This document shows positions 3,168-23,126 of a stretch of 64,000 nucleotides of DNA, piece by piece. This DNA comes from Peptococcia bacterium (GTDB lineage: Bacteria > Bacillota > Peptococcia > DRI-13 > DTU073). The notes beneath the pieces are model-generated. The model searched no databases. It saw only the letters and a program-made list of their open reading frames with translations, and had not been told where the DNA came from. Positions within the stretch are counted from its first letter, which is position 1. Each line of letters starts with the position of its first letter. The DNA is taken from assembly GCA_050951605.1 (NCBI GenBank), contig JBMNJJ010000009.1, positions 409,730-473,729 of the forward strand, given 5' to 3'. The position numbers and the translations under genes were made by a program.

Positions 3168-3861
3168 ATGAAAAGTGAAGTAATAGAAAGTTGGAAGATA
3201 AAAGGGGCTATCTTTGATTTGGATGGGGTACTTATAGATTCTATGGGAGTGTGGAAAAACCTTGATAAAGACTTTTTGCAAAAGAGAGGGTTTGCGGTTC
3301 CACAGGATATAGATAAGGTGGTTAAAAGCTTGAGTTTTCAGGATGCTGCCGTGTATTTCAAAGAAAAATTCCACCTTTCCCAAACTATTGCAGAAATAAT
3401 GGAAGAGTGGAATAAGATGGTTTTTGACGAATATGCATTTCGCATTGAATTGAAACCGGAGAGTCAGGGAATACCTGCTATATCTTGAAACACAGGGTAT
3501 AAAGATAGGGCTGGCAACGAGTAACACAAGAAAACTGACAGAAGTTGTTCTAAGAAATAACGGTGTATATGACTATTTTGAGGTGATCAAAACGGGGGAT
3601 GAGGTTGAAAGAGATAAAAATTTCCCCGATATCTATTTGCTCTGTGCGGAAGAACTACAGTTGGAACCTGAGCAATGTGTTGTGTTTGAGGATATCTTGC
3701 CGGGGATATTAAGTGCTAAGGCTGCCGGAATGAGGACGGTAGGGGTTTATGACCAGTACTCAAAACATGAATGGGCAGGAATTAAAGCGCATGCCGCTTT
3801 ATGTATCTTAAGTTTTGAAGAATTGACAGGGAGAGGGATAACCGAAGTTTGTCAAAAATAG
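3168..3861 (+). pseudogene. HAD-superfamily hydrolase (beta-phosphoglucomutase-like), frameshifted copy A
   Basis: Two ORFs (3138..3488 and 3583..3861) together align with the intact paralogue 34224..34916. Copy A reads ccggagagtcaggg where copy B reads ccgggagtcaggg (+1 nt near 3457-3465). DLDG motif present. Confidence 0.8.
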
Positions 3862-4064
3862 TTTTATGGTTTTTTGCACTTCACACTATTGTGGAGTGTT
3901 TTTTTGTATGCGGAAAGTGGTAATGATTAAAGGAATTAGTATTTTCTTATAGAATGTTCTATATAATTTCATTTTTTTAATTATTAACACAATAATTACT
4001 AGTAGGGGTTGTTTATTGGCAAGATGGGATAGGAATTTAAAAAAGGGGGAGTGGGAGGTCAGAA

Positions 4065-5468: not shown

Positions 5469-5516
5469 TGCTGAGGATTAACGTTAACAAAATAAAAACC
5501 AAAATGGGGGTTAGAA

Positions 5517-6722
5517 ATGAAAAAGATTGGTATTATTGCTTTATGTTTTGTTTTATTAGGAACTGGTGTTTTTCTTTATAAGCATTCATCAAATGAGGAG
5601 CCGGTGGTAAGTATAGAAGGGAACAATCTTCAGGAACCGGTAGAGGGAGATAACCTTGCGGAAATAGAGCCGGAGGGTGATTTGCTTGATACGGATGAGG
5701 AAGAAGATCTGTCCGATACAAATGAGAATGACGAGAAAAAAGAAGAGGAAAGCGTTGTAGATACAGGTAATAGTACTGTCATTCAAGCTGCGGAAAGATA
5801 TTTAGCTCCGGAGTTGGATTGGAGTGCAGAATATAGCAGTACACCTATTTATGGTCTTTATTCTATAATTCTTAGCAGAACACGTGACTTTAATGACAGT
5901 ATAGAAGAGATTTTATCCGAAATAGAATATGAACGTGAAGAGGCGCGATCTTTAAAGCCGGATGAGGCATTAATGTCTTTAATTGAAACTGAACCGCTTT
6001 TTGCACAAATCAAAAGTAAAACTAACACAATGTATTCACTATATTCTTTAGACGGTAAAATTGGTGAATATTACGGAAAGTATACACAACAGCTTCTCGA
6101 ACATTTTGTAGATTATATTATTTTTGACGAGGATGCTCCTGATGGCTTTTTTATCAGTGGTACACAAAATCATATGCCACAACCGGTTAAGGTGTTTGTT
6201 AATTGTAAGCTTAGTGCAAAGGAAAGAGACTTGGAAATTCGAAAATTGCGGGAGTTTGATGAGGAAAAACTGCTCGAAGTGGGGAGACAATTAATTGGTG
6301 AGGAGAGGGAAGTTATTATTGCTCAATATCTGGAATGTGATTTAAACAATGACCAAAAAGTGGAAAAAATTGTTAACTATAATAATTTTATTTCAGATCC
6401 GGATGTTGACGAATATTTAATAGGCGACCAACCGAAAAACAGTTGGCAAGAAAAATATTATTCCATCCTGGTAATTTTAGATGACCACTATCAACCTCTA
6501 GGTTTTATCCAAAACATGCCGGATTTTTCGGGGATTGATAATCTCCAGGCATATGAGATCGGACGGACAGCAGTTCAATATCTTGTGGATATCGATAATG
6601 ATAATCAAATGGAGATTATTAGTTTTAGACGCGGTTGGGAATATGACGACTATCTTTTTAGCAAATTTACTGCAGATAAGGTAGAGAGTTATTATCAAAG
6701 ATATTTTTGGATTTTCTATTAA
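5517..6722 (+). CDS. Secreted or membrane-anchored protein; N-terminal module near-identical to 4065..5468 but with a different C-terminal domain
   Basis: Roughly the first 60 aa (MKKIGIIALCFVLLGTG...SIEGNNLQEPVEGDNLAEIEPEGDLLD) are almost identical to the upstream gene. The rest is unrelated. Confidence 0.7.
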   Translation: MKKIGIIALCFVLLGTGVFLYKHSSNEEPVVSIEGNNLQEPVEGDNLAEIEPEGDLLDTDEEEDLSDTNENDEKKEEESVVDTGNSTVIQAAERYLAPELDWSAEYSSTPIYGLYSIILSRTRDFNDSIEEILSEIEYEREEARSLKPDEALMSLIETEPLFAQIKSKTNTMYSLYSLDGKIGEYYGKYTQQLLEHFVDYIIFDEDAPDGFFISGTQNHMPQPVKVFVNCKLSAKERDLEIRKLREFDEEKLLEVGRQLIGEEREVIIAQYLECDLNNDQKVEKIVNYNNFISDPDVDEYLIGDQPKNSWQEKYYSILVILDDHYQPLGFIQNMPDFSGIDNLQAYEIGRTAVQYLVDIDNDNQMEIISFRRGWEYDDYLFSKFTADKVESYYQRYFWIFY

Positions 6723-6920
6723 GAAACATCTATACTCCTGACGGTTTTGCTTTTAATGTTCACTAAATTTAAGTAAAATTTTTAATAGGGGTTGTTTGGG
6801 TTTTTTATGGTTTTATTAATTTTGTTAGTTCTGAATTTGTCGTGACTAATAAAGGAGTATTAGTTAAAACAGGATTAATTAAAAGAGATACTTTAGAAAC
6901 ACTTTTTTCGAAAAAGCTGT

Positions 6921-7968
6921 TTAGACAAAGTATTCAATTTCTGCCTCGGGGAGATATTTATCTGTTAATTGCAGAAAGAAGGCTTTTAATTCCTTCATTT
7001 CCTCCGGTGGGTAGATATATTTGCCATATCCGAATTGACCGTATTTATATTTACGCTTGCTTTCTTCCAATGGTAATTTAGTTTGGGGAAAGACTTTCAG
7101 GATGTGGGATTTGGCTCTAGGGGTAAAACGATGTGTAATAAATTCAAGAGAAAGCTTTTCCGGAAATCGGTTTTCTGAAATGGTTGGGGTTAGTAGCTTC
7201 TCTAATGAAATAAATAACTTAGTATATTCCTCTTGCCAGTTCTCGAACTTAAAGAGAGGGGCAATGATAAACCCCAACGGGATACCCGGCTTGTAAAACT
7301 TTTCTGGCCGCTAAGATTCTTTCTTTTGCAGAAGGTGTCCCATGCTCGAACTTTTTTATTATTTCTTCACAATTTAGGCTAAATCGGAATCTTGTATGAC
7401 CATGATGATTAGCGTCTAAAAGACTTTCTACTTCAGTAAACTTAGTCACAAAGCGAAAGCGCCCTTGAGGTTGCTTTCCAAAGAAATTAATTGTTTTCTT
7501 TAGACTACCGGTATATCTTTCAACCGGTAGGGGATCTGAGGTGGCCGCTCCTTCGAAAACGGTTATTTCCGGTAAGCGCTTTTTGATGATGTCTTGAGTT
7601 AACCCCAGAATTTCTTCAATATTAACATAGATACGCACGTAGGGTTTTGGTCCTAATGTTGTTGCTAAATAACAATATTCGCACATGCCGGGACAACTTG
7701 TTGCCAATGGTAACTGGTAGTGAGCTGATGGTTTACAGGTTTGAAAGGTTTTACTGCGTCTAACTCCTATGACCAGTGTTTTTTTAGCTTTTTGATATAA
7801 TTCCACGGGTGTATTCCCGGTTATTCCGGTTACTCTATTATGTGAAGTTGTTGCTTGTACCGGAATATTTATCTGTCGAAAATAGTCTACCAAATTCTCG
7901 CCTAAGGGGTAATCTAGGGCTTGAGGTTCATAAAATACTTGGTGTGGTGTAAAGGTCAATTTCATCAC
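6921..7968 (-). pseudogene. splB: Spore photoproduct lyase, frameshifted copy A
   Basis: ORFs 7249..7968 and 6921..7277 together align with the intact 34929..35966. Radical-SAM motif CPGMCEYCY present. There is an extra G (caacgggatacc versus caacggatacc) near 7279-7281. The upstream promoter region is replaced by the island, with vapC ending 35 nt away. Confidence 0.85.
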
Positions 7969-7987
7969 CTCTAACTGTAGGGTGCCC
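6921..7987 (+). repeat. Direct repeat segment 2 (splB), copy A (matches 34929..35994)
   Basis: Collinear and near-identical. In copy B it follows segment 1 within about 5 nt; in copy A it is separated from segment 1 by 3.05 kb. Confidence 0.85.
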
Positions 7988-8002
7988 TAAATGTTTAAGA
8001 AG

Positions 8003-8404
8003 TTATTCAGTCCAATTTTGCAGACTCAATTTGGGAATTCTATTAAATTCTTTAGTATTGTTAGTGACTAAAACAAGATTTTCAGAGAGGGCATGGGCTG
8101 CAATTAATAAGTCATAAGCTCCAATGATTTGCCCTCTTTTCTCAAGGTTAGCACGTATTTCTCCATATAAAGACATAGCTTTATCTGTAAAAGGGAGGAT
8201 TTCAATTGGAGTCAAAAAATTTAACAAGGCGACCTTATTTCTCTTTTGTTGTTGACTTTTATATACACCATATTGCAGTTCGGCAAAAGTGATTGCTGAA
8301 ATACAGACATCGCCTACATTAAGTGCTTGAAAAGTTTGCAAAACTTTTCCCGGTTTCTTTTTAATAATATAAATACAGATATTCGTATCCAACATATATT
8401 TCAT
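8003..8404 (-). CDS. vapC: PIN-domain toxin VapC
   Basis: MKYMLDTNICIY... has the acidic PIN residues. The ATG sits 1 nt after the vapB stop (TAAAATG). Confidence 0.85.
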   Translation of the reverse strand: MKYMLDTNICIYIIKKKPGKVLQTFQALNVGDVCISAITFAELQYGVYKSQQQKRNKVALLNFLTPIEILPFTDKAMSLYGEIRANLEKRGQIIGAYDLLIAAHALSENLVLVTNNTKEFNRIPKLSLQNWTE

Positions 8405-8405
8405 T

Positions 8406-8633
8406 TTATAATTCATCCCGTTCTTCAATTTCCGGTTGATTTCTATCTGCTAAAAAGTCATCAGTAAAATAATTTGCCCCGGACTCAAGGACTTTCCAAG
8501 CACTATCTTTGGGAATCAAAAGAACGACATCATTAATTTTTTTGATATATACCTCGGAACCTTCCAGACGATATTCTTTAGGCAAGCGAACAGCTTGACT
8601 TCTACCATTCATAAAGATTTTAGCTGTATCCAA
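8406..8633 (-). CDS. vapB: AbrB/SpoVT-fold antitoxin VapB
   Basis: (M)DTAKIFMNGRSQAVRLPKEYRLEG... The probable start is TTG, 7 nt after GGAGG; the long upstream part of ORF 8406..8786 is not coding. Confidence 0.8.
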   Translation of the reverse strand: MDTAKIFMNGRSQAVRLPKEYRLEGSEVYIKKINDVVLLIPKDSAWKVLESGANYFTDDFLADRNQPEIEERDEL

Positions 8634-8846
8634 AATGTGCACCTCCGATAAAATGATATATATCATAGTATATATCATTGTTGCATAAAAGCAATCGTAG
8701 ATTATTTTTATTTTATAAAACAACAGGGAAAAGCAAAAGCAGGGGGTAAGATTTAAATACTTGCATAAGTGAGTTGTATAAGGCATTATAGGTTATTAGT
8801 ATATCAATACTTTTGACACTACGAGTAAAAAGCGGAGGGATGTTTC

Positions 8847-9281
8847 ATGAAAATTAATTTTACAAAAAAGGAATATTGTATTCTTGTTGAAATGATTAGT
8901 GTGGCTAATTGGATCATACTAAATGAGGCAAAAAAAGAAGATGATAACCAATATGAGAGATTAGAACAAAAGTTACTATCTTTTGCTAAGAATTTTGGGT
9001 TTGAGGAAAATGTCATTTATGACCGGGAACTGGGTAAATATTTTACTACAGCGGATTTTGAAGAAAATAAAACGTTAAAACATATAGAGAAATATGAGGA
9101 TGGCTTTTTTTGGGATGAATTAAGTTATAGACTGGCTGTTCGCGATTTATGGGAAGAATTCGGTGAAGAAAAGATTCGACAGATGGATATTGATGAGAGA
9201 TTTGGCAGGATTTGCAGGGCTGAGGAAAAATATAATGAGGAATTTGAAAATAATGGACTTGAAAATCTTAAAATAGATTAA
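8847..9281 (+). CDS. Hypothetical acidic cytoplasmic protein
   Basis: RBS GGAGGGA upstream. 144 aa, D/E-rich, no recognisable motif. Confidence 0.5.
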   Translation: MKINFTKKEYCILVEMISVANWIILNEAKKEDDNQYERLEQKLLSFAKNFGFEENVIYDRELGKYFTTADFEENKTLKHIEKYEDGFFWDELSYRLAVRDLWEEFGEEKIRQMDIDERFGRICRAEEKYNEEFENNGLENLKID

Positions 9282-9398
9282 GTTTTTTGCAATTTAATTT
9301 TTACTTAAAGGTCTATAATGAAAATTAAATTATGGCATAATCATTTTAAACGTTAAAATGAAAAATATAAGTGGTTATCAAAGGGAGATACCGGAAAG

Positions 9399-9911
9399 AT
9401 GAATACAGGAAAGAAAAAGAAGCAACCAGTTTTGAAAATGCCACTTACAAGTTGGGAAAAGAGCCTTGAGGTGACCTCAATATTAGGGGTGTTATTACTT
9501 TTTTCGTTGGTATTTACCTCATGGGAAAGCTTACCGGAAAAAATACCAAGACATTTTGGTTTTGCCGGTACTCCGGATGCGTGGGGCAGCAAAAACTTTT
9601 TAATGTTTCTCCCTATAATGGCGTTGTTGTTGTATTTGTTATTAACAATTGCCACTAAGTACCCTCATACTTTTAATTATCCTTATAAAATTAATGAGCA
9701 AAACGCACAAGTGCAATATAAATATGCTCGATATCTGTTGGCTATTTTAAAGGCTGAAATAATTTGGTCGTTTTTTTATATTGAATGGGTAACGATACAA
9801 GTTGCCCTCGGGAAAGCAAAAGGCTTGGGTAGTATGTTTTTACCAATCTTCCTGGTAATCCTCTTTGGAACTATTGGGATTTATTTATATAAGGCTAGGA
9901 AAGGAAGATAG
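9399..9911 (+). CDS. DUF1648-type membrane protein (SdpI N-terminal-like)
   Basis: The motif LPEKIPRHFGFAGTPDAWGSKN follows the first TM helix; 4 predicted TM helices. Confidence 0.6.
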   Translation: MNTGKKKKQPVLKMPLTSWEKSLEVTSILGVLLLFSLVFTSWESLPEKIPRHFGFAGTPDAWGSKNFLMFLPIMALLLYLLLTIATKYPHTFNYPYKINEQNAQVQYKYARYLLAILKAEIIWSFFYIEWVTIQVALGKAKGLGSMFLPIFLVILFGTIGIYLYKARKGR

Positions 9912-9979
9912 GTTTTTATATGGAACGATAATTATTCGGATTATTTTTTTATGATACGTATAGAGTGAAAATGAGGAAA

Positions 9980-10008
9980 AGGGCACTTCGCATGGAAGTG
10001 CCTTTTGG
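9980..10008 (+). terminator. Rho-independent terminator
   Basis: GGCACTTC-gcat-GAAGTGCC followed by TTTT. Confidence 0.6.
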
Positions 10009-10128
10009 ATACTTGAAAACAAAAAAATGGCAGTATTTAAAGGAATTAGCAATAAATTGTAGAATATTTTCATAGTGTATTATTTTTTCAGTTCATCCAA
10101 AAACACTTGTATTAAGCGGAGGTGTTTT

Positions 10129-10809
10129 ATGTCAAATAATAATCTGGGATGCCTTGGCTTTATTTTACAAACTATTGGTATTTTGCCAAAACAAATAGAT
10201 AAATTAGGATCGGAAGATTCATTACCATATGCATTAAGGGATGATTTTTTGTCATCAGCGGAGTTATCATTTTATAAAGTTTTGGAGCAAACGATAGGAG
10301 AAAGGGCTATTATTTGTCCTAAGGTTTCTCTAAAGGATATTTTCTTTGTTAGGGCAAGGGATAGAAGTAAGTTTTATACATATAACAATAAGATTAATTT
10401 AAAGCATGTAGATTTTTTAATTTGCTCTAAAGAAACATTAAAACCAATATGTGGGATAGAACTTGATGATTTATCTCATGCTCGGCAAGATAGAATTGAA
10501 CGAGATGAATTTGTAGATAGGGTATTTAAAGCGGCAGATTTAAAACTTATAAGAATTCCCAATAAAACAAGTTACTCAATAGTAGAGATTGAAGAAAAAA
10601 TAAAACCGTTATTTATGAAAGATATGCCAGAGAAAATAGATGATAATGAGAAAATAGATGAAAAAGGCGATGCAATGGAAATTCTCATCTGTAAAAAATG
10701 TGGTATTCCTATGGTTTTACGTGTAGCTAAGAGGGGTGAGAATACAGGACAAGAATTTTATGGATGTGTCAATTACCCTAAATGTAAAGAAATAATAGAA
10801 ATAGATTGA
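10129..10809 (+). CDS. DUF2726 (restriction-endonuclease-like) protein with a C-terminal topoisomerase-type C4 zinc ribbon
   Basis: Start after GGAGG. SSAELSFYKVL...HVDFLICSK...CGIELDD..H matches DUF2726. The C-terminus CKKCGIPMVLRVAKRGENTGQEFYGCVNYPKC matches the zf-C4_Topoisom pattern. Confidence 0.65.
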   Translation: MSNNNLGCLGFILQTIGILPKQIDKLGSEDSLPYALRDDFLSSAELSFYKVLEQTIGERAIICPKVSLKDIFFVRARDRSKFYTYNNKINLKHVDFLICSKETLKPICGIELDDLSHARQDRIERDEFVDRVFKAADLKLIRIPNKTSYSIVEIEEKIKPLFMKDMPEKIDDNEKIDEKGDAMEILICKKCGIPMVLRVAKRGENTGQEFYGCVNYPKCKEIIEID

Positions 10810-10848
10810 TTGTTTTACCTATGTTATTCAATAGATCGGAGGAGTATT

Positions 10849-11450
10849 ATGGAAAAGGTTTGTCCCCTTCCGTTAATCTGGAACGAAATATATAAAAGAT
10901 TATATCAGAAATGGATAGAATATGGCTCTATTGGAGAAGCACCACCTGTTCCATTAATTTTAGGGGGTTGGGTCTATGTAATGATGTGGAGAAGCAGAAG
11001 CGTTGGGAAGAAACGGAAAAATGGGCACAGGAAAGGGGGGTTTCTTCGATATTATTAGATTTAACTGAGGAGAACTTTTATAAAGTTGATGAATTAAGCG
11101 ATTATGATATCGATCCAATGGGAGGGCCGATGTATTTACGATGCTCTTATGAGCCTAAGGCAATTCCTACAAAAGAAAGTTTGTTAAAAGCTTAAAACGC
11201 AATTGGAATTCTATTATGGGATCTGATTTAGCTAGATTGACAGTACCAATTGGCTTTACTGGAAAAAAAGGTCGGAAATTAGTAGTTAAAGTAGTAGAAA
11301 AGGCTAATCCTCCTTGGGGGTACTTGGAAAGACCTTTCAAGAGTAGAAGAAAAACGTCGTACTTTTACGATAATTAGAAAAAAAATAAATGAATTGATAG
11401 AGCCAAATATGGTAGAACACATTGATTTTGAAGTTGATAAAACAATTTAA
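10849..11450 (+). pseudogene. Decayed gene of unknown function (at least 3 frameshifts)
   Basis: Starts after GGAGGAG. A continuous ~200-aa reading (MEKVCPLPLIWNEIY...GGWVY / NDVEKQKRWEETEKW...SLLKA / LKRNWNSIMGSD...PPWG / TWKDLSRVEEKRRTF...EVDKTI*) appears only when the frame is switched three times. Confidence 0.5.
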
Positions 11451-11583
11451 TTTTTAAGTTAAAGTAGATTATTGGATTGTTGAATTATATTAATATTACG
11501 AAAAGATTGTTAATGGTGTCAATCAAAATTTATTTAAATGATATTTAGATAATTAATATGGTTAATAAAGGGGATGGTGTACT

Positions 11584-12345
11584 TTGTCTAATATCTTAAG
11601 TAATTTAAGTAGTGAAATTGGAGAAACTCTTTTTACAGTATCTAGACGTTCTCCGTTTTCGATAGAGGCTGTATTCGATAATGTAGTGCAAATAAGAGTA
11701 GGAAAGAGCAGGGTTTTAGTTGAGTTACCAGTTAATAAAATACTAGAGGCAGAAAAAATTTTACTTGAGCGAGGTTCTTTAAAACTAAAAGATTTTAATG
11801 TAGAAAAAAGTCAACTCAAGTCATATATTTTAGCAATCTTGGCATATGTTTATCATGCCCAAATAAGTAAAGTTGAAAAGTGCGTATGTATTAGTGTAGA
11901 AAAAACAATGAGTCCTGATGAATTAGAAAAAATATTAAAGCGACAAAAAGAAGTTGGTTACATAGCAGAGATGTTAGTTATTGAGTACGAAACAGAAAAA
12001 TTAAGAAAATGTGGGAAAGGTTATCTAGTTAATTCTATTGATTGGGTAAGTCAAAGAGACTGTACGGCAGGATATGATATAAGATCATTTAATGAAAATG
12101 GAGATGTAATCTATATTGAAGTTAAGGGAACCAGTGGGGATTGTAACCAATTTGAAATAACAAAAAATGAATTGGAAAAAGCTAAACAGCTAAAGGAAAC
12201 GTACTTTATTTATCGTGTCATGTATGTAGATTCACAGAAGAAACCTGAAATAGTAAAATTGTGTGATCCATTTAATATGATTGAACAAGGAGAGGTAAAG
12301 ATTACACCCGCAGTATTTTTAATGCAGTACAAAAATATGATTTAA
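11584..12345 (+). CDS. DUF3883-domain (PD-(D/E)xK nuclease-like) protein
   Basis: TTG start after AAAGGGGATGG. The C-terminal half GYDIRSFNENGDVIYIEVKGTSGD...FEITKNELEKA...YFIYRV fits the DUF3883 D...E-x-K core. The N-terminal ~120 aa are unassigned. Confidence 0.6.
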   Translation: MSNILSNLSSEIGETLFTVSRRSPFSIEAVFDNVVQIRVGKSRVLVELPVNKILEAEKILLERGSLKLKDFNVEKSQLKSYILAILAYVYHAQISKVEKCVCISVEKTMSPDELEKILKRQKEVGYIAEMLVIEYETEKLRKCGKGYLVNSIDWVSQRDCTAGYDIRSFNENGDVIYIEVKGTSGDCNQFEITKNELEKAKQLKETYFIYRVMYVDSQKKPEIVKLCDPFNMIEQGEVKITPAVFLMQYKNMI

Positions 12346-12396
12346 AAAGTCCTCAACTCTAACATAATAAAGAAATGTAAGAAAGAGGTATGTTTC

Positions 12397-15300
12397 ATGA
12401 CCCGTATGAATGATATTTTTAATTTTTTAAAAGAATATAATGAACTCACTAATCCTGTTATTACGGAATTGGGTAATCAAAAGTGGAGTATGAAACTTAG
12501 TAATTTGCCTCAAATAAAGGAAATTTGGTCTATTTATCATATGCAAAGTTATAATAGTGATTTAATACTTGAAGTAGAAAGACCTATCATTGAGCCTTGT
12601 CCTATTCCAGATAAATCTATTTTAGATTGGCTTGATGGAAAATGGAGTTCTATTGAATCCGAAATTATTTTATATAAAGAAAAGAGGATTGTCGAAGAGT
12701 GTTTAGAAGACGGTTCAGTTATTCAAAAAGAAGAGTTTTTTGTAGATGTTCCTGAGCGTATACAATTATACGAAGATTGGATAGAAAGGCGTAATATATG
12801 GAGAAGCATTCAATTACCTAAAAAGCAGGGGTTAAATTTATATAATAATCTGTTTAAGCTTTATTCAGAAATTAAAAGAGAAACTGAAGTAGAATTAATT
12901 TTTGGTGATGGGCATATCAAATGGGATACAGGAGAAAGGACGATTGATCATCCGGTTCTTTTACAAAGGGTAATTTTAGAGTTTAACACAAACAAGCCTT
13001 CCTTTTTAATTAAATGTGATGAAACGAAGCCGGAAATATATACGTCTATGCTTAGAGTTATTAGCTCCGTTAATCAGAGTATGTTATCGGAAATAATTCA
13101 TGAAGTTGATGAACAACAATATCATATAGCGGATATTGAAAATACAAAAGGTTTTTTTAAAAGACTTATTAGTGTTATATCTAGTCAGGGGAAATTACTG
13201 GAGGAGTTTGACAGTAATTTTATAGATCCAGTTATTATGATTGATCCAGTTTTATTCTTAAGAAAAAGAACTTTGGGTTTTTCAGGTTTCATAGATGAAA
13301 TTATTAAAGACATTAATGAAACTGGTGGACATATTCCTAGTTTTTTTAGTCCTATGTTTGGTGAATATAATGTAACTAATAATACTGAAATTATTGAGGA
13401 AGATTGGAATCAAAGTGGAATGGATCAAGATGTATTATTAACACTTCCTGCAAATAATGAGCAGCTTAAAATAATTAAATACTTAAATAACTATGGAGCG
13501 GTACTTGTTCAGGGGCCTCCCGGTACAGGAAAGACTCATACTATAGCTAACTTAATCGGTCACTTATTAAGGAAAATTTTGAAATAAAAGTAAAAGAACT
13601 TAAGAAAATTATTTCACCTTCTTTTAAATGGTATGAAAATAATTGGTCTCATTTAGTTAATGAGTTATTAATTTTAACCCAAGATAGTGATAATTTTAAG
13701 CAGATATGTACCATAAATTTTGAAAATCCAATCGAATCAATGATGAATATTTTACAGTCATTTATTATTCCGGAATTAGAGGGGAAAATATATCGACTAA
13801 AACTAGAAGATAATTCAAAATTATGGAGTAATTACCTTGAAGTATTTTGTGAACGTGCAGTATTTAGAGAATCTTTTAGCGGGATTATTAATGCCATTAA
13901 AAGTAAAAACTTTGATCTTTATAAGCAAAAGCATAAGGAGATTGTGAATTTATATAATAAAGAATCAATTTTTGAAAGAAGAGCTGAACTTTTAAAACTT
14001 ATTAAAAATTACACTCCGAATTGGGCTGAGGCTATTCGTCATCGTAGAGGAATACATGGTAAAGAAAAAGTACCGGATAATATTGAATTAGCATGGAAAT
14101 GGCTACAGTTAGATAGTCAAATAAAACGGATTGATAGTTACGATCCTAATCTTATTCAAAGCGAAATTCATAAATTAACTGATGTACTTATAAAAAATGC
14201 ACAATATTTAGCTTATGAAAAAGCCTGGTATACCAAAGTGAAAAATCAAACTGCTGAGCAAATACAAGCTGTTGAAGGTTGGAGGCAAACAATGAGGCAG
14301 GTAGGAAGAGGAACAGGTAGGATGGCCCCTCAGCTATTAAGACAAGCTAGAGAGCTTATGCCTAGTTGTCAAAATGCTATCCCTGTTTGGATTATGCCTT
14401 TAAATAGAGTTGTTGAAAGTTTTAAACCACAAAATAATAAATTTGATGTTGTAATTATTGATGAAGCCAGCCAAGCTGATATTTTAGCTTTAAGTGTTCT
14501 TTACCTTGGTAAAAAGGTTATTATTGTTGGTGATGATGAGCAAGTTAGTCCTAATGCAGTTGGATTAAAAGTTGAGGAGGTTAATGCATTAATAGAGCAG
14601 TATTTACAAGGAATTCCCCACAAGCATCTTTATAATGGAAAGACATCAATTTATGACCTGGCCAAAAGATCAGGTTTTAAACCACTAATGTTAACAGAGC
14701 ATTTTAGATGTTTACCTGAAATAATTAGTTTTAGTAATCAACTATCGTATAATGGTAAAATTCGTCCGTTAAGAGATACATCAGATGTACATATTAAACC
14801 AGCAGTTGTCGAATATCGTGTTCCGAATGCTGTGCAACAAAATAAAATAAATATAAAAGAAGCTGAACATATTGCTTCACTTATTATGGCATGTATTGAG
14901 AGGGATGAATATAAGGGAAAAACATTTGGTGTTATTTCATTATTAGGACAAGAACAAGCCTATGCGGTAGATCGAATATTACAAGCTTGTTTAGAGCCTG
15001 CCGAATATGAAAAACGTAAAATACAATGCGGTAATCCAGCCCAATTTCAAGGGGATGAAAGAGATGTTGTTTTTTTGAGCTTGGTATATGCTCCAAAGGA
15101 AGAAGGAGGACCCCTAAGATTATTATCAGAGGATGGTAATAATGATTTAACGAGAAAAAGATATAATGTTGCAGCTAGTAGGGCTAAAGATCAGATGTGG
15201 GTTGTATATTCATTAAATCCTGAAATTGATTTAAAACCGGATGACATTAGGCTAAGATTAATAAAACATGTTGCTAATTCTAAAAACTTTGAAATTGAGA

Positions 15301-15770
15301 CCAAATTATCATCAACAGAATCCGAGTTTGAGAAGGCAGTAATGCAGACGTTAATGAACAGAGGTTATCAGGTTAAAAGTCAGTGGCTAGTAGGAGCTTA
15401 TCGAATTGATCTTGTTGTTGAAGATGCAGATAAACGCATAGCAATAGAATGTGATGGTGAAAAATGGCATACGAAAGATGATTTAGCTAATGACCTTAAA
15501 AGACAAGCAATTCTTGAAAGATTAGGGTGGAGGTTTATTAGAATTCGCGGTAGTGCCTTTTATAGAAATTCTGAAAATACTATGCAATGGGTTTATGAAG
15601 AATTAACGAAGCACGATATCCACCCAAACTATGATATGAATTCTAATTTAAATTCAGAAGAAGAAATAAAAAATGAAAATGATCTGCTTGAATTAATTAA
15701 GTGTCGTGCTGAAAGTATAAGAAGTGAATGGGAAAAAGAAAACCTTGATAAACTCGAAAGTGAACAATAG
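12397..15770 (+). pseudogene. DUF4011 / Upf1-like SF1 helicase (AAA_11/AAA_12) with a C-terminal Vsr/DUF559 (MTES_1575-like) endonuclease domain; split
   Basis: ORF 12397..13587 ends 10 codons after Walker A (GPPGTGKTHTIANLIGHLL). A second frame, open from about 13548 to 15770, carries VVIIDEASQ, LTEHFRC, QFQGDERDVVFLS and RYNVAASRAK. The tail reads YRIDLVVEDADKRIAIECDGEKWH...RQAILERLGWRFIRI. I see no motif Ia between Walker A and DEAS. Confidence 0.75.
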
Positions 15771-15853
15771 AGTGAAAAAACAAGATGATACAGTTTTAGT
15801 TACAGAGCAAAGTTTTACAAGTTACATGCGTCTTGCGAGAGAGGGAGATAAAC

Positions 15854-16097
15854 ATGAATTACGAGCGATCAACGCGGTATCTTAATGCATTTAGTGATAT
15901 TGAGAAGATTCTTAGACGTTTAGCCGGGAAGATAAACATGTGCCATTTGGGCAACTAGTAAAAAAATCAGAGAAAATAGAAAAGTCTGTAAGAACGTATG
16001 CAGATGATTTGATTGAGTTTGCTGATTTAAGAAATGCTATCGTTCACAAACGAAGTGATGGTGTACATCCAATTGCTGAACCTCATCTTAATACGGT
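15854..16097 (+). pseudogene. HEPN-CBS protein, 5' part (HEPN RX4H motif); interrupted by IS21 and carrying an apparent frameshift near 15916-15940
   Basis: RBS GAGGGAG then ATG. ...DDLIEFADLRNAIVHKRSDG contains the R-N-x-x-x-H HEPN signature. The coding frame continues exactly into 18629..19108 once the IS and one TSD copy are removed. Confidence 0.7.
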
Positions 16098-16148
16098 TGT
16101 TTATATTAAACTAAAAGTACCCCAAATAATAATTGAAAAGTACCCCAC
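16098..16148 (+). repeat. IS21 left terminal inverted repeat with two AAAAGTACCCCA subrepeats
   Basis: Two copies of (A/G)AAAGTACCCCA. Multiple terminal transposase-binding repeats are typical of IS21. Confidence 0.75.
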
Positions 16149-16220
16149 ATTAAAATATACTTCCACATGTTATTAATAAATTTTTAACATGTGGAGGGTG
16201 AGGGGAGATTGATAAAGCTA

Positions 16221-17807
16221 ATGGAAAAACAGGACATTTTACTTATGTTTTTACGGGATGGCAAATCCCAACGAGCCATTGAGCGTGAAACGGGTATTTC
16301 AAGAAAAACAATCAGCAAATACATCAAGAAATATGAAAAACAAAGGGCCCAATTACAAGAAGGAAATTCGAAAACCTTTGGTGATATTAAGGAGCTCACG
16401 GATAACATCGTTACACCGCCTAAATATGATTCTAGCGGTAGAAAAAAGCGTAAAGTAACTAAGGAATTAGTAGATGCTATTAAAGCCCATTTGGAAGAAA
16501 ATGAATTAAAAAGACATAATGGACAATCCAAAATACAGAAAAAGAAAATTGATATTCATGAAGCACTTGTAGATGCAGGATTTGATATTAGCTATTCCAC
16601 CGTCTGTAATACGGTTAGGGAGTTGACTAATCAAGCCCAAGAGGCCTATATTAAAGCCCTTTATGCCCTTGGTGAGGTATGCGAATTTGATTGGGGTGAA
16701 GTAAAATTAACCATCGCTGGTCGATTGATAAAATTACAGATTGCGGTTTTTACCAGTGCCGCCGGAAACTATCGTTATGCAACTCTATTCCTAAAGCAAG
16801 ACACAGCCTGTTTTTTAGAATCCCATGCTAAGTTTTTTGAACATTTGGGCAATGTGTACAAACTGATGGTGTACGATAATACTAGAGTGGCTGTTAAAAA
16901 ACTTGCCGGTGCCGAAGGAGAACCAACGGAAGCATTGCGCCAATTATCGCTATATTACGGTTTTAAGTTCCGTTTCTGCAATATAAATGCTGGAAACGAA
17001 AAGGGTCATGTGGAAAGAAGTGTAGAGTATGTGCGGCGCAAGGCTTTCGCCCATAAAAGTACATTTAATTCGTTTGCAGAAGCGAATGAATATCTGGCTA
17101 AAACTTGTTCTCGGTTAAATGCAAAGCCACAAAAGGGTCTTAATGATAAAACGGCAATAGATATTCTAGAACTGGAAAGACCGCATTTATTACCTAATTT
17201 ACCCCCATATGACGCGGCACGAATTACGGAATTACGGGTTAATAAATATTCAGTCATAACAGTGGATAACTGCTATTACTCGGTTCCGGATAAATATGTT
17301 GGCAAGCTGGTTTTAACCAAAATCTACTCTAATGAGATCCGTTGCTTTTACGAGGGAGATTTAATTGCTACCCACACTAGGAAGATGGGCTCAAATGCAT
17401 GGAGTATTCAATTAGAACATTATTTAAACACATTAAAAAAGAAGCCCGGGGCATTAGCTACCAGTGTTGCACTCCACCAAGCTAATCCAAGGCTCAAAAA
17501 AATCTATCATCAATACTATACCACAAAAGGGAGGGATTTTATCGATTTAATATTTTTTGTTTCAGAACATGGGTTAGAAAAAGTTGAAGATGCTATTAAT
17601 TTACTTACAAAAGTTTCACCGCTAGAGGTTACAACGGAAACCATTAAGGCTATTTGCAATCGCAATACAGTGGATAAATCTAAATTTACTGTGCACGATA
17701 GTGCAACCTTGCAGATTAAAAACAGCTCATTAGCTATGCTTAAGCAATTTGGGCAACTAATTCCTTATGGTAACGAGGCATTTGCGAAAGAGGTGGTTGT
17801 AATATGA
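16221..17807 (+). CDS. istA: IS21-family transposase IstA
   Basis: N-terminal HTH (GKSQRAIERETGISRKTISKYIKKY) and a DDE-type core; 3' end overlaps istB. Start choice (ATG 16221 versus GTG 16191) is uncertain. Confidence 0.9.
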   Translation: MEKQDILLMFLRDGKSQRAIERETGISRKTISKYIKKYEKQRAQLQEGNSKTFGDIKELTDNIVTPPKYDSSGRKKRKVTKELVDAIKAHLEENELKRHNGQSKIQKKKIDIHEALVDAGFDISYSTVCNTVRELTNQAQEAYIKALYALGEVCEFDWGEVKLTIAGRLIKLQIAVFTSAAGNYRYATLFLKQDTACFLESHAKFFEHLGNVYKLMVYDNTRVAVKKLAGAEGEPTEALRQLSLYYGFKFRFCNINAGNEKGHVERSVEYVRRKAFAHKSTFNSFAEANEYLAKTCSRLNAKPQKGLNDKTAIDILELERPHLLPNLPPYDAARITELRVNKYSVITVDNCYYSVPDKYVGKLVLTKIYSNEIRCFYEGDLIATHTRKMGSNAWSIQLEHYLNTLKKKPGALATSVALHQANPRLKKIYHQYYTTKGRDFIDLIFFVSEHGLEKVEDAINLLTKVSPLEVTTETIKAICNRNTVDKSKFTVHDSATLQIKNSSLAMLKQFGQLIPYGNEAFAKEVVVI

Positions 17808-18562
17808 GCAAAAACATTTACCAAGACATTGAAGATTTCGCACTTTATTTAAAAATGCCTGTTTTAAAAAGTAGCTATCGCGAAGCAATTCAAGAAGCCA
17901 ATTTAAAAGAAGTAAGCTATGATCAGTTTTTGTGGGAGTTATTACAAAAGGAGTGTGATAGACGACAGGAAAATGCTAAACAAGACAGGGTGCGTAGGGC
18001 TGCATTTCCTTACAAGAAATATCTCGAAGACATCATCGTGGATGACCTACCAGAGGATGCCCAAAGAAAATTTAAAACTCTTTCTTCATTAGATTTCATC
18101 CAAACCGGGCAGAACATTATTATGGCTGGAAACCCTGGTACCGGTAAAACTCATTTTGCCATAGGGTTGGGGATAAAAGCGTGTTTAGCCGGTTACAAAG
18201 TGTTTTTTTCCACGATACCATCTTTAATCAACCAGCTTAAGGAAAGTCGCTCAGAAAAGACGCTAAGGGCATTTGGGAACAAATTCGAAAAGTATGATTT
18301 AGTCATTGCCGATGAATTAGGTTACATCTCATTTGACAAGGAGGGTTCGGAACTTTTATTTACCCATTTGTCTTTAAGGGCAGGGAGAAAATCTACAATA
18401 ATTACCACAAATTTATCTTTTGAAAGGTGGGATGAGATTTTCCTAGATCCCGTTCTTACAGCAGCCATGGTAGACCGCTTAACTCATAAAGCCTATATTG
18501 TGAACATGAATGGTAATTCATTTCGTCTTAAAGAAACAACTGAATGGGCAAAAAATAATTAA
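17804..18562 (+). CDS. istB: IS21-family helper ATPase IstB
   Basis: ATGA overlap with istA. Walker A GNPGTGKTH and Walker B VIADELGY. Confidence 0.9.
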   Translation: MSKNIYQDIEDFALYLKMPVLKSSYREAIQEANLKEVSYDQFLWELLQKECDRRQENAKQDRVRRAAFPYKKYLEDIIVDDLPEDAQRKFKTLSSLDFIQTGQNIIMAGNPGTGKTHFAIGLGIKACLAGYKVFFSTIPSLINQLKESRSEKTLRAFGNKFEKYDLVIADELGYISFDKEGSELLFTHLSLRAGRKSTIITTNLSFERWDEIFLDPVLTAAMVDRLTHKAYIVNMNGNSFRLKETTEWAKNN

Positions 18563-18576
18563 TTTTTTTGTCCCAA

Positions 18577-18628
18577 AGTGGGGTACTTTTCAATTAAAAT
18601 GTGGGGTACTTTTCACTTGACAAATACA
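18577..18628 (+). repeat. IS21 right terminal inverted repeat with two TGGGGTACTTTT subrepeats
   Basis: Mirror image of the left-end subrepeats. Confidence 0.75.
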
Positions 18629-19108
18629 ACGGTTTTGCGCTTGGAAGCAATTAGGGAACGTATTGCGAACCCCCCAACTGTTCAACCACTTTTTTTTAGG
18701 GATGTATTTATATGTCAAGCAATGGATCCTATAGGTGAAGCTGCAAAAATGATGCTAAAAAGCTCTTTTTCACAAGTCCCAGTTTATAAAGATGAAATAT
18801 TTGAGGGATTGCTAACTACTCAAACTATAGCCAGATGGTTGGCAGCTAAATTGGAGACAGGTATTGGTTTATTAGAAGAAGAAAGTGTGAAAAATGTACT
18901 AACCTTTAGTGAATATGATGATAACTACAGATTTATAAAAAGAAATACTACTTTGTATGATGTTTCACAATATTTTGATGACTTCGTCCAAAAAGGTAGA
19001 AATCTGGATGCTTTAATCATAACTCATTCAGGAAAAAGCAATGAAAAGCCACTGGGGATAGTTACGATCTTTGATTTGCCAGAAGTTTTTAGGAATATAG
19101 TAATCTGA
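18629..19108 (+). pseudogene. HEPN-CBS protein, 3' part (tandem CBS / Bateman module)
   Basis: ...LRLEAIRERIANPP...VFICQAMDPIGEAAKMMLKSSFSQVPVY... and ...VKNVLTF...PLGIVTIFDL form two CBS repeats. The frame is continuous with 15940..16097 across the IS. Confidence 0.7.
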
Positions 19109-19173
19109 AATTTAACGTTATTATTTTGTACAAGCCCATTTTTATTTATAACATAAGGAAAGGAGGAGAAATT

Positions 19174-20574
19174 ATGAGGTTATTTATAAAGCAAAATGAG
19201 CGTCAATTGTTATTATATAGTCAAATAGTAAATGATTATCCATGGTTACGTGATTTACTAGAACAAAATGAAAAAATATCAAATGAATTAGTTAAGTCTT
19301 TTTCTAAAGAGAAACAAGAATTTATAAAAACTATGTTTCAAAGAATTTTAAAATTAGCTTCAGAAGAATGGGAACGTGATAACAGCAAAGCTGTTAAAGA
19401 TTTAGGCAAAGATAAACAAAATTGGATTAAATGCTCTTTAGATAATAGACCTAATAGATTTGTTTTTTATATTAAGAATTATAGAAATGGAATAAGTTTA
19501 AATGTTGGAAGTGAATGTATTGAAAAATTCGATTTAATAAGTAAAAAAGATAGAATTCAGCTACAAAAAGAAGCAATACGAACGAGACGGTTAGCAAAAT
19601 TAAATAAAATCATACCAAATGTTGAAGAAATTATTAAAAACTGGGATAGAGACTTAAAAAAACAGCTAATAATCATTCCTTCAAATTTAAGTGTTCCTTA
19701 TATTCAAGTTGGCGATAAGGCTAAAGAATTATTCAATAAAATTTTAGATGAAGAAAGTGCAAATGTTAATGAATTAAATAGTTTATTAAAGCAACAAAAA
19801 GAATTACTTTTAAAAATTGACAATTATGTTAATGAACATAAAGACAAGCCTTTTATTCCGAATAAAAAAGTAGAATTTTGGTTAAAAAATAAGAATACAA
19901 TGGAGGCCAGAGAAGCATTAGAAAATCTTCAAAAGCTTGGGAAAACAACTATTTTTAGTATACATAGGATAAGAGAGAAAGAATTTATGGAATTATTAAT
20001 TCCAGAACTTAATTTAGTATTAAAAGGAGTTAAAGTTGAAAGTGCTGATTATTTACGGGAGGGATATGTTTATTATCTTCTGAAGCAGAAGGATATTAAA
20101 TTGTTTTGTAAACATAAAATTTTGCTTGAGGAATATGGTGGAAAAATTTTAGGTGAAGAACCGGATTATGTCCCGAATTTCCCTAGAATTATTGTTAATA
20201 GCAAAGTATATGATGATTTATCATATAGCAATATTATTGATTATGTTCAGGATAGTTTAAAGAATGTTCGAATTAAATATAATTATGATCATAAAGAAAT
20301 TTTATTAGAAGTAACCAATGATGAAAGAACTTATTATATTATTCCTCTTCAATCTTTTGGAATGCATTTTAAAACAATTGGTTTATTAACAAATAAACAA
20401 GCGAATGAGCAGTTGTCTAAACTTATAAAAACTGCAAAAGGATATTCGAAACTTGAATTAGCAAAATGGCAAAAGCCTGTTTGGATTCCATGGAATAAAA
20501 TTTTACCATCGGATGAAGATAAATTAAATAATTTAAAAGAAAATTACTTTGATATATTTTATGATGCAATATAA
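19174..20574 (+). CDS. Hypothetical 466-aa Lys/Asn-rich protein with no recognisable domain
   Basis: Strong RBS AAGGAAAGGAGGAG then ATG (MRLFIKQNERQ...). Very AT-rich. Lies 66 nt downstream of the HEPN-CBS gene and 146 nt upstream of hsdM. Confidence 0.6.
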   Translation: MRLFIKQNERQLLLYSQIVNDYPWLRDLLEQNEKISNELVKSFSKEKQEFIKTMFQRILKLASEEWERDNSKAVKDLGKDKQNWIKCSLDNRPNRFVFYIKNYRNGISLNVGSECIEKFDLISKKDRIQLQKEAIRTRRLAKLNKIIPNVEEIIKNWDRDLKKQLIIIPSNLSVPYIQVGDKAKELFNKILDEESANVNELNSLLKQQKELLLKIDNYVNEHKDKPFIPNKKVEFWLKNKNTMEAREALENLQKLGKTTIFSIHRIREKEFMELLIPELNLVLKGVKVESADYLREGYVYYLLKQKDIKLFCKHKILLEEYGGKILGEEPDYVPNFPRIIVNSKVYDDLSYSNIIDYVQDSLKNVRIKYNYDHKEILLEVTNDERTYYIIPLQSFGMHFKTIGLLTNKQANEQLSKLIKTAKGYSKLELAKWQKPVWIPWNKILPSDEDKLNNLKENYFDIFYDAI

Positions 20575-20719
20575 TATTTAAGAGTAGCACTGTAGATTAA
20601 TAATTATAGAAACATTAATTCAGCTGTGTTTTTTACCATAAGAGTTAAAATATTAGGCAAAGAGTAAGGGATGAGATAGAATAGAGATGAAACTAATGAC
20701 TTGAATTGGAGGAAGATAG

Positions 20720-22849: not shown

Positions 22850-23126
22850 AGAAGCAAAGGATGAACTTGATCAAAAGCTCTATGCCAAATATCCAACATT
22901 AACAATAGATGAAATAAAAACCCTTGTCGTAGAAGAAAAATGGATGGCTACTATTGAACGGAATATTCGTACAGAAATGGAGAAAATCAGTCAACGTTTA
23001 GCGCAGCGGATTAAGGAATTAGTTGAAAGATATGAAAACTCCTTACCTGAGCAGATTGCAGAAGTAGAAGAATTAGAACAGAAAGTAAATGCTCATCTTG
23101 AAAGGATGGGGTTTGTATGGCAGTAA
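22845..23126 (+). pseudogene. hsdM: Detached 3' segment of hsdM in the +1 frame
   Basis: The frame is open from 22818. IKEAKDELDQKLYAKYPTLTIDEIKTLVVEEKWMATIERN...HLERMGFVWQ* becomes contiguous with HsdM if the A run is 7 rather than 8. It ends in an ATGGCAGTAA overlap with hsdS. Confidence 0.75.

What the first reader, a model, noticed from the sequence alone, without database searches (positions are those of the whole stretch)
11584..15770. DUF3883 nuclease-like gene paired with a DUF4011/Upf1-like helicase carrying a Vsr/DUF559-type endonuclease tail; the helicase is split
Architecture:
- The two co-oriented genes are 51 nt apart.
- The upstream one is a 253-aa protein whose C-terminal half looks like the DUF3883 PD-(D/E)xK fold.
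- The downstream one is a large SF1 helicase with Walker A GPPGTGKT, DEAS, and motifs III, V and VI.
- The helicase ends in a Vsr/DUF559 (MTES_1575-like) endonuclease domain (YRIDLVVED...IECDGEKWH).

Comparison with known systems:
- COG1112-type helicases underlie the Mokosh and Nhi defence systems.
- As far as I recall, a helicase plus Vsr-like endonuclease protein is catalogued as Hhe.
- A separate DUF3883 partner is not part of those descriptions, to my knowledge.

Damage in this copy:
- ORF1 stops 10 codons after Walker A, and the rest continues in another frame.
- No motif Ia is visible, which suggests an internal deletion plus frameshift.
Basis: partly seen in the sequence, partly recalled or inferred. 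Interest (0 to 1): 0.62.

Follow-up and report, generated by a model that had tools for sequence, protein, structure and literature searches.

The report
Broken defence helicase beside DUF3883 gene
A large helicase-nuclease gene of a probable anti-phage type is knocked out here by a 1,093-base internal deletion, and the small DUF3883 nuclease-like gene in front of it is a neighbour seen only in this one lineage, so the locus is a decayed part of a defence island and not a new two-gene system.

Summary
The sequence facts hold. A 253-aa NOV_C/DUF3883 gene (11584-12345) lies 51 nt upstream of an Upf1-like SF1 helicase that ends in an MTES_1575/Vsr-like endonuclease, and the helicase is split. One label fails: no DUF4011 domain is detectable.

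A near-identical metagenome contig (L023) carries the intact 1,488-aa helicase. The window lacks exactly 1,093 bp of it (codons 392-756, including motif Ia). The junction is at 13571|13572 and has no flanking repeat. Contigs from three other metagenomes show the intact allele at the breakpoints; none shows the junction.

The proposed pairing is not conserved:
- About 100 loci of this helicase family contain NOV_C only in the window lineage.
- None of 83 NOV_C loci contains this helicase.
- In the helicase's own clade, 12 of 16 loci have a 72-aa YdbC/PC4-like ssDNA-binding gene directly upstream. The window lineage nests inside that clade, so NOV_C occupies the PC4 slot.
- The few full-length NOV_C relatives sit in other contexts or alone.

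The helicase scores far below the Hhe and ProA cut-offs and matches PDC-S37 only partly.

Verdict: two adjacent defence-island genes, one inactivated. Interest is low to moderate. The PC4-like/helicase pairing in relatives is the more interesting lead.

The parts
11584..12345 (+). Intact 253-aa gene (TTG start, GGGGA ribosome-binding site 9 nt upstream). The N-terminal ~110 aa are an unassigned domain. The C-terminal part is a NOV_C/DUF3883 PD-(D/E)xK-type domain.
   Evidence: - ORF and upstream sequence.
- Pfam NOV_C 75.7 bits.
- PADLOC PDC-S36 76.7 bits and PD-T4-1 68.1 bits, domain only.
- 100% identical on L023, where JGI calls the same 253-aa gene.
- Only 4 full-length relatives among 1.84 billion representative proteins.
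11965..12252 (+). NOV_C domain (aa 128-223) with the putative catalytic residues D165 (GYDIRSF, 12070-12090) and E179/K181 (IYIEVKG, 12109-12129).
   Evidence: D165 is invariant in the five-member family alignment, and IEVKG is present in the four sequences that cover it.
12346..12396 (.). 51-nt spacer with an AGAGG ribosome-binding site before the helicase ATG. No terminator-like hairpin.
   Evidence: Promoter-like hits at 12231-12259 and 12341-12368 are no more frequent than in shuffled sequence, so they carry no weight.
12397..13587 (+). Helicase 5' fragment. Native codons 1-391 run to 13571, followed by 5 out-of-frame codons (RKILK) and a stop. It contains the family-specific N-terminal domain (aa ~1-345) and Walker A (13513-13536).
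   Evidence: -.
- AlphaFold2 model of this fragment: mean pLDDT 76.6, 80-95 over aa 30-290.
13571..13572 (+). Deletion junction. 1,093 bp of the intact gene are missing (L023 4101-5193: last base of codon 392 through codon 756). The lost part includes motif Ia and the first half of the large helical insertion.
   Evidence: - blastn of L023 against the window and breakpoint sequences.
- blastp against P0001.
- No direct repeat with spacing 1,093 and no microhomology.
13572..15770 (+). Helicase 3' part in the native frame (codons 757-1488). The frame is open from 13551 and the first ATG is at 13740, which gives the 676-aa ORF. It carries motif II DEAS (14460-14471), GDDEQ, QFQGDERD, YNVAASRAK and the C-terminal MTES_1575/Vsr-like endonuclease (15327-15605).
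   Evidence: The stretch is 99.97% identical to L023. No Shine-Dalgarno-like sequence precedes 13740.

Best explanation
Two neighbouring but independent genes lie in a defence island (about 10.0-28.1 kb). The host is a low-GC, probably spore-forming anaerobe found in bioreactor, biogas and landfill metagenomes.

Gene 1 is an intact stand-alone DUF3883/NOV_C PD-(D/E)xK nuclease-like protein with an orphan N-terminal domain.

Gene 2 is a ~1,488-aa single-polypeptide helicase-nuclease with three parts:
- a family-specific N-terminal domain of unassigned fold;
- an Upf1-like SF1B motor with a ~650-aa helical insertion;
- a C-terminal MTES_1575/Vsr-like endonuclease.

It is a distant relative of Hhe, ProA and PDC-S37.

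How the intact protein most likely works (inferred, not shown):
- The motor translocates on single-stranded nucleic acid of an invader.
- The C-terminal nuclease cuts it.
- In most close relatives a YdbC/PC4-like ssDNA-binding protein is encoded immediately upstream. It probably marks or presents ssDNA to the helicase.

In this lineage the PC4 slot is occupied by the NOV_C gene instead.

In this genome a 1,093-bp deletion removes codons 392-756, including motif Ia, and shifts the frame. What remains is a Walker-A-only N fragment and a C fragment that lacks Walker A and has no visible ribosome-binding site. The helicase-nuclease is therefore non-functional. Any residual activity at the locus would come from the NOV_C gene alone.
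For: Domains and family:
- Domain content.
- The family is large and full-length conserved: 4,137 proteins at E<=1e-10, typically 1,500-1,700 aa.

Deletion:
- An intact allele is 100%/99.97% identical on either side of the deletion.
- The deleted segment aligns with conserved residues of other family members, so it is not an insertion in L023.
- Contigs of X1, X3 and X4 run into the intact sequence at both breakpoints.
- One X1 contig spans the NOV_C 3' half, the spacer and the helicase, and runs into the intact sequence.

Non-conservation of the pair:
- The NOV_C HMM hits only the window and L023 among about 100 helicase loci.
- tblastn of the helicase finds nothing in 83 NOV_C loci.
- Full-length NOV_C relatives lie next to an SNF2/DUF4391/methylase cluster (L025), on short contigs with no helicase of this family, or stand alone. 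A domain-only relative also stands alone.
- The nearest NOV_C domain relatives are RNase III-dsRBD fusions, not helicase fusions.

PC4-like partner in relatives:
- The PC4-like gene lies 1-39 nt upstream in 12 of 16 loci of the >=44%-identity clade.
- Pfam PC4 scores 30.8-32.4 bits against a cut-off of 25.
- It matches the YdbC and SP_0782 structures at E 1e-24 to 1e-29. Both are shown ssDNA binders (PMC3575825, PMC7145681).
- A neighbour-joining tree places the window lineage as sister to a PC4-linked locus, inside the PC4 clade.

Island context:
- DUF2726/Zn-ribbon gene, IS21, type I R-M, YgjP.
Against: - The two genes are co-oriented, only 51 nt apart, with no terminator between them. The arrangement is identical in L023 and is present in contigs of two further metagenomes, X1 and X3. 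Co-transcription and a lineage-specific functional coupling therefore cannot be excluded.
- The NOV_C gene sits exactly where the clade's partner gene normally sits. This could mean a module swap and not a chance neighbour.
- The deletion allele is seen only in the window.
- At four or five of six homopolymer sites the window disagrees with all the other datasets that cover the site; at 15925 the datasets split. Its assembly is therefore not error-free.
- No experiment links this helicase family to phage defence. The defence role rests on domain similarity and island context.
Confidence: 0.7

Rival explanations
1. Module swap. The NOV_C protein is a genuine functional partner that replaced the YdbC/PC4-like protein. 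This would give a lineage-specific two-gene system, NOV_C nuclease plus helicase-Vsr nuclease, transcribed as an operon.
For: - Same strand, 51-nt spacer and no terminator.
- NOV_C occupies the slot that holds the PC4-like partner in 12 of 16 related loci.
- The arrangement is stable across L023 and contigs of X1 and X3.
- One full-length NOV_C relative also lies just upstream of a helicase, an SNF2 type (L025).
- DUF3883 occurs fused to helicases and ATPases in known defence proteins: TmtA and HmaA hits.
Against: - It is seen in one lineage only.
- The NOV_C family profile is not homologous to the PC4-like profile (hhalign probability 9.6%).
- The helicase already has its own nuclease.
- Other short NOV_C proteins stand alone.
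- L035 and L006 show that other unrelated genes, or none, can occupy the slot.
Confidence: 0.15
2. The split is an assembly artefact. The source organism really carries the intact 1,488-aa helicase.
For: - No other dataset contains the junction.
- Three metagenomes and L023 carry the intact form.
- The window differs from L023 only by 1-nt indels, all but one in homopolymer runs, and most of these break ORFs in the window. That pattern is typical of error-prone consensus sequence.
Against: - A clean 1,093-bp loss of unique sequence is not a usual assembler or consensus error: no repeat or microhomology at the breakpoints, and 100% identical flanks.
- Homopolymer errors do not produce kilobase deletions.
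Confidence: 0.15
3. The helicase is simply a degraded member of an already named system (Hhe, ProA or Mokosh type II).
For: - Best PADLOC hits are PDC-S37, MkoC and Hhe. Best NCBIfam hits are ProA and Hhe.
- It shares the overall architecture of an SF1 helicase followed by a Vsr-like nuclease.
Against: - Intact relatives score 169-240 bits against curated cut-offs of 1500 (ProA) and 2000 (Hhe).
- No DUF4011 and no PLD domain.
- The N-terminal 345 aa align to none of these profiles.
Confidence: 0.05

Closest known systems
Hhe (single-gene anti-phage helicase with Vsr-like endonuclease; NCBIfam NF042953, PADLOC PDLC02194)
   Same: A single polypeptide with an SF1 helicase core followed by a C-terminal Vsr/DUF559-type endonuclease. 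It is located in a defence island.
   Different: - No DUF4011 domain.
- 146-176 bits against a cut-off of 2000.
- Only the helicase C-half and the nuclease align.
- The close clade has a PC4-like upstream gene, which Hhe's single-gene cataloguing does not imply (Hhe loci were not examined here).
ProA (NCBIfam NF058533, 'anti-phage protein ProA')
   Same: It is the best NCBIfam hit. The helicase and nuclease parts align (profile positions about 970-1760).
   Different: - 176-240 bits against a cut-off of 1500.
- The N-terminal third of the profile is unmatched.
- No paper describing ProA was found in the held library.
PDC-S37 (PADLOC candidate single-gene system, PDLC05009)
   Same: It is the best PADLOC hit. 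Its length (1,550 positions) is similar to that of the intact proteins. P0001 aligns over profile positions 286-1392.
   Different: - Only 232-237 bits over more than 1,000 positions, in one or two stretches.
- The N-terminal domain does not align.
- For comparison, the island's type I R-M proteins score 1,133-1,516 bits on their own models.
Mokosh type II (MkoC)
   Same: A COG1112/Upf1-like helicase region (118-133 bits).
   Different: The effector is a Vsr-like PD-(D/E)xK domain, not a PLD nuclease. No PLD domain was found.
Stand-alone DUF3883/NOV_C defence genes (PD-T4-1, PDC-S36) and DUF3883 tails of TmtA and HmaA
   Same: The C-terminal NOV_C domain with the D...ExK signature.
   Different: - Only the domain aligns (PDC-S36 profile 153-253 of 280; PD-T4-1 profile 215-376 of 383).
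- The N-terminal ~110 aa are an orphan domain shared with only four proteins.
YdbC / SP_0782 (bacterial PC4-like ssDNA-binding proteins; PDB 2LTD, 2L3A, 3PM7)
   Same: The 72-aa gene directly upstream of the helicase in related loci belongs to this family.
   Different: - It is absent from the window.
- Housekeeping ydbC was reported to have a variable genome context (PMC3575825). These copies are instead tightly linked to the helicase.

Membership tests
Hhe | N-terminal DUF4011 domain | tested here: not met
   The N-terminal 350 aa of the intact allele give 0 Pfam families at E<=10. DUF4011 is not among the 25 of 26 Pfam hits of P0133 that were listed.
Hhe | SF1 helicase core plus C-terminal Vsr/DUF559-like endonuclease in one protein | tested here: met
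   AAA_11, AAA_12, MTES_1575 (105.7-107.4 bits) and DUF559.
Hhe | Whole-protein score at or above the NCBIfam equivalog cut-off (2000 bits) | tested here: not met
   146.1 bits for the window fragment. 176.5 and 169 bits for the intact relatives P0001 and P0011.
ProA (NF058533) | Whole-protein score at or above the cut-off (1500 bits) | tested here: not met
   175.8 bits for the fragment. 239.7 and 223.8 bits for intact relatives.
PDC-S37 (PADLOC) | Full-length match to PDLC05009 | tested here: inconclusive
   232-237 bits. P0001 covers profile positions 286-1392 of 1550. P0133 matches in two stretches. The N-terminal domain is unmatched. This tool gives no PADLOC cut-off.
Mokosh type II (MkoC) | PLD-family nuclease domain fused to the helicase | tested here: not met
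   No PLD family appears among the Pfam hits. The nuclease is MTES_1575/DUF559.
Stand-alone DUF3883 defence genes (PD-T4-1 / PDC-S36) | NOV_C domain with intact D...ExK residues | tested here: met
   Pfam NOV_C 75.7 bits. D165, E179 and K181 are present.
Stand-alone DUF3883 defence genes (PD-T4-1 / PDC-S36) | Full-length similarity to the profile | tested here: not met
   Only the C-terminal domain aligns.
   NOV_C is found only in the window and L023 among about 100 helicase loci. The helicase is found in 0 of 83 NOV_C loci.
YdbC/PC4-like + helicase-nuclease module (seen in relatives) | 72-aa PC4-like gene within 40 nt upstream of the helicase | tested here: not met
   tblastn of two PC4-like proteins finds nothing significant in the 64-kb window. 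The module is present in 12 of 16 related loci.
Any of the above | Protection against phage when expressed | not testable with these tools
No RNA run holds the locus.

The most novel reading that the evidence does not exclude
The position immediately upstream of this Hhe-like helicase-nuclease is a swappable accessory slot. It usually holds a YdbC/PC4-like ssDNA-binding protein. In this lineage a NOV_C nuclease with an orphan N-terminal domain has replaced it and works together with the helicase. The window would then preserve the remains of an undescribed two-component variant of helicase-nuclease immunity.
Probability: 0.15. Interest if true: 0.55.

Novelty: new member of a known kind. Interest (0 to 1): 0.3.

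Why it matters
For this window the result is mostly a clean-up. The eye-catching pair is a lineage-specific juxtaposition, and the helicase is dead in this genome. It should not be counted as a new system or as an active defence gene.

Two things have some wider value:
- This helicase-nuclease family is large, with thousands of proteins across Bacillota, Chloroflexota, Acidobacteriota and other phyla. It has an N-terminal domain with no Pfam or PDB counterpart and falls well below the cut-offs of the named families Hhe and ProA. Automatic annotation will therefore label it only as an 'AAA domain protein'.
- One clade of the family is tightly linked to a YdbC/PC4-like ssDNA-binding gene. That suggests a testable idea of how such helicase-nucleases find their substrate.

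Tried and rejected
- Exact look-ups of the window's own 253-aa and 676-aa products found no contig. The intact allele was reached instead through cluster members.
- Exact-pattern scans of the GTDB representative genomes found nothing for the deletion junction or for the spacer/helicase start.
- A run search with the junction alone found no run. An RNA-run search found none.
- The literature on 'ProA', 'PDC-S37' and 'PD-T4-1' yielded nothing usable.
- The single-sequence AlphaFold2 model of the NOV_C protein was useless (pLDDT 33.5), so it was not fold-searched.
- The idea that the N-terminal half of the NOV_C protein is a hidden PC4-like domain was tested and rejected (hhalign probability 9.6%). 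A PDB profile search found nothing.
- The idea that the 1,093 bp are an insertion in L023 (intron or IS) was rejected. The segment encodes conserved family residues, including motif Ia.
- Repeat-mediated deletion or assembly collapse was rejected. No repeat has the right spacing.
- The Rfam scan of the window found nothing.
Full report
**1. What is in the sequence**

Three co-oriented ORFs cover the stretch:
- 11584-12345, 253 aa
- 12397-13587, 396 aa
- 13740-15770, 676 aa

The spacer between the first two is 51 nt. It has an AGAGG ribosome-binding site and no terminator-like hairpin.

Pfam assignments:
- The first protein carries NOV_C, the former DUF3883 (75.7 bits, aa 128-223).
- The second has only the start of AAA_11, around Walker A.
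- The third has the end of AAA_11, then AAA_12, MTES_1575 (107.4 bits) and DUF559.

A profile of the family finds Upf1, Sen1, IGHMBP2 and DNA2 as the nearest solved proteins. 'Upf1-like SF1 helicase with a Vsr-type tail' is therefore correct.

'DUF4011' is not correct. The N-terminal 350 aa hit no Pfam family even at E<=10. The Hhe and ProA profiles align only with the helicase and nuclease parts.

**2. The split**

The 396-aa and 676-aa products share a 90%-identity cluster with a 1,488-aa protein. The 253-aa product clusters with an identical-length protein on the same 19.9-kb JGI contig. That contig was fetched as L023.

blastn of L023 against the window:

| L023 | Window | Identity |
|---|---|---|
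| 1942-4100 | 11413-13571 | 100% |
| 4101-5193 | absent | - |
| 5194-17392 | 13572-25772 | 99.97% |

- The missing 1,093 bp equal 364 codons plus one base. They run from the last base of codon 392 through codon 756.
- One event therefore explains both the missing motif Ia (VLVTSHTEKAL) and the frameshift.
- ORF1 carries 11 native residues after Walker A, then RKILK and a stop.
- The native frame resumes at 13572. The 676-aa ORF corresponds to residues 813-1488.
- The missing segment aligns with conserved residues of other family members (alignment A2). It is a deletion in the window, not an insertion in L023.
- The breakpoints share no microhomology. No direct repeat has the matching spacing.

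**3. Is the deletion real?**

- Contigs from three independent metagenomes (two bioreactor, one landfill) end at the breakpoints and continue into the intact sequence.
- One X1 contig runs from the NOV_C gene through the spacer and the helicase N part into the intact sequence.
- No run, and no GTDB representative genome, contains the junction.
- The window's only other differences from L023 are 1-nt indels, all but one in homopolymer runs. At four or five of the six homopolymer sites the window stands alone against every other dataset that covers the site; at 15925 the datasets split.
- The assembly therefore carries small indel errors or private changes.
- A clean kilobase loss of unique sequence is not that kind of error. 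I rate it a real mutation of the sequenced strain at about 0.85. The source reads could not be examined.

**4. Is the DUF3883 gene a partner?**

The helicase family is large:
- 4,137 proteins at E<=1e-10, typically 1,500-1,700 aa.

I collected about 100 loci and searched all their ORFs with a NOV_C HMM. Only the window and L023 hit.

Reciprocal test: 83 loci holding NOV_C-domain genes contain no helicase of this family.

An exhaustive search found only four full-length relatives of the 253-aa protein, at 32-44% identity in the five-member alignment. Their contexts:
- one next to an SNF2/DUF4391/methylase/ResIII cluster;
- two on short contigs with no helicase of this family.

Other observations on NOV_C proteins:
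- More distant members of about 280 aa look stand-alone. So does a 264-aa domain-only relative.
- The nearest relatives of the domain itself are ~900-aa RNase III/dsRBD/NOV_C fusions, not helicase fusions.

**5. What normally sits in that slot**

| Upstream gene | Loci (of 16 full-length, >=44% identity) |
|---|---|
| 72-aa PC4-like gene, 1-39 nt upstream | 12 |
| Something else or nothing | 3 |
| NOV_C (window/L023 lineage) | 1 |

- The 72-aa protein passes the Pfam PC4 threshold. It matches the YdbC and SP_0782 structures at E 1e-24 to 1e-29. Both are ssDNA-binding PC4-like proteins (PMC3575825, PMC7145681).
- The flanking genes of these loci differ, so the linkage is not plain synteny.
- A neighbour-joining tree places the window lineage as sister to a PC4-linked locus, inside the PC4 clade. 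The ancestral state was PC4-like, and NOV_C displaced it here.
- Helicases below about 44% identity have no conserved upstream gene.
- The NOV_C family profile is not related to the PC4-like profile.

**6. Mechanism**

Shown:
- the domain content and its order;
- intact catalytic signatures in NOV_C (D165, E179, K181) and in the Vsr-like domain;
- loss of motif Ia and of frame continuity in this copy.

Inferred for the intact protein:
- It is an SF1B motor that moves on single-stranded nucleic acid and delivers a C-terminal endonuclease.
- In the PC4 clade a small ssDNA-binding protein probably marks the substrate.
- The N-terminal domain models confidently (pLDDT 80-95 over aa 30-290). It has no PDB counterpart. 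Its role, possibly sensing or regulation, is unknown.

In this genome the helicase-nuclease cannot work as an ATP-driven enzyme. The NOV_C gene is intact and may act on its own, as single-gene DUF3883 entries in PADLOC suggest.

**7. Comparison with known systems**

- The architecture resembles Hhe, ProA and PDC-S37.
- Intact relatives score 169-240 bits against the curated cut-offs of 2000 (Hhe) and 1500 (ProA). They score 232-237 bits on PDC-S37 with partial coverage.
- Mokosh type II shares only the helicase region and has a different nuclease.
- The gene is therefore a distant, unnamed relative within a known kind, not a member of those families.
- The locus lies in a defence island: a DUF2726/Zn-ribbon gene, IS21, a type I R-M system and YgjP.

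**8. Verdict**

- The interpretation as a new two-gene architecture is not supported.
- The pseudogene claim is supported, subject to read-level confirmation.
- Interest is 0.3.
- The most useful by-product is the PC4-like/helicase linkage in related genomes.

Noticed in passing
L001:6458-6676, L002:3116-3334, L005:851-1069, L009:5760-5978, L036:3765-3986, L206:4766-4984 and others: A 72-aa YdbC/SP_0782-type PC4-like ssDNA-binding gene lies 1-39 nt upstream of the helicase-nuclease in 12 of 16 loci of the close clade, with differing flanks. In one distant viral-contig member (L120) a PC4-like gene lies about 440 nt downstream instead. I found no description of this pairing.
   Followed up: partly
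window 10977, 11316, 15925, 20629, 22838, 23311: The only differences from L023 over about 14.8 kb are 1-nt indels, all but one in homopolymer runs. Contigs of X1 and X3 side with L023 at 11316, 22838 and 23311, and X1 also at 20629. At 15925 X1 sides with the window. In the window they split an ORF at 10810-11195, a 107-aa ORF at about 15850-16176, and truncate hsdM (709 vs 801 aa). At 23311 (A10 vs A9) the window has the intact hsdS and the others a split one. This could be consensus error or phase variation.
   Followed up: partly
window 16098-18628: An IS21-family element (istA 16191-17807, istB 17804-18562) has multi-repeat terminal inverted repeats and a 5-bp ACGGT target duplication. 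It interrupts a gene whose 3' part encodes CBS domains (18578-19108). The insertion is also present in L023. The element is at 100-300x depth against 3-7x for its flanks in two metagenomes.
   Followed up: partly
window 11413-11420 (L023:475-1941): L023 carries a 1,467-bp insertion with transposase fragments (rve_3, HTH_Tnp_1) flanked by an 8-bp duplication, TAGAACAC, 164 bp upstream of the NOV_C start. The window is the empty site. Contigs of X1 and X3 break at this point, which suggests the site is polymorphic.
   Followed up: partly
window 10075-10809: A 244-aa protein has a DUF2726 domain (111.9 bits) and a C-terminal topoisomerase-type C4 zinc ribbon. It lies just upstream in the same island and matches no PADLOC model.
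   Followed up: no
P0138-P0141, P0145, P0160, P0213: Apart from the few full-length relatives, the nearest relatives of this NOV_C domain are ~740-980-aa proteins that combine RNase III-like and dsRNA-binding (dsrm) domains with a C-terminal NOV_C domain. The architecture suggests dsRNA-sensing nucleases.
   Followed up: no
L025:1437-10225: A full-length relative of the 253-aa protein (P0137, about 33% identity) sits 282 nt upstream of an SNF2 helicase. This is followed by DUF4391, an unknown gene, an N6/N4 methylase and a ResIII/RE_endonuc gene.
   Followed up: no
window 6921-7968 (- strand): The spore photoproduct lyase gene appears split into 239-aa and 118-aa overlapping ORFs (the Pfam SPL match stops at profile position 231 of 338). 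This may be another frameshift in this assembly.
   Followed up: no
P0011, P0039 (L206, L208): Some family members carry a rubredoxin-like zinc module inserted in the N-terminal domain (about aa 104-152 in P0011). The window's protein lacks it.
   Followed up: no
[not shown]
   Followed up: partly
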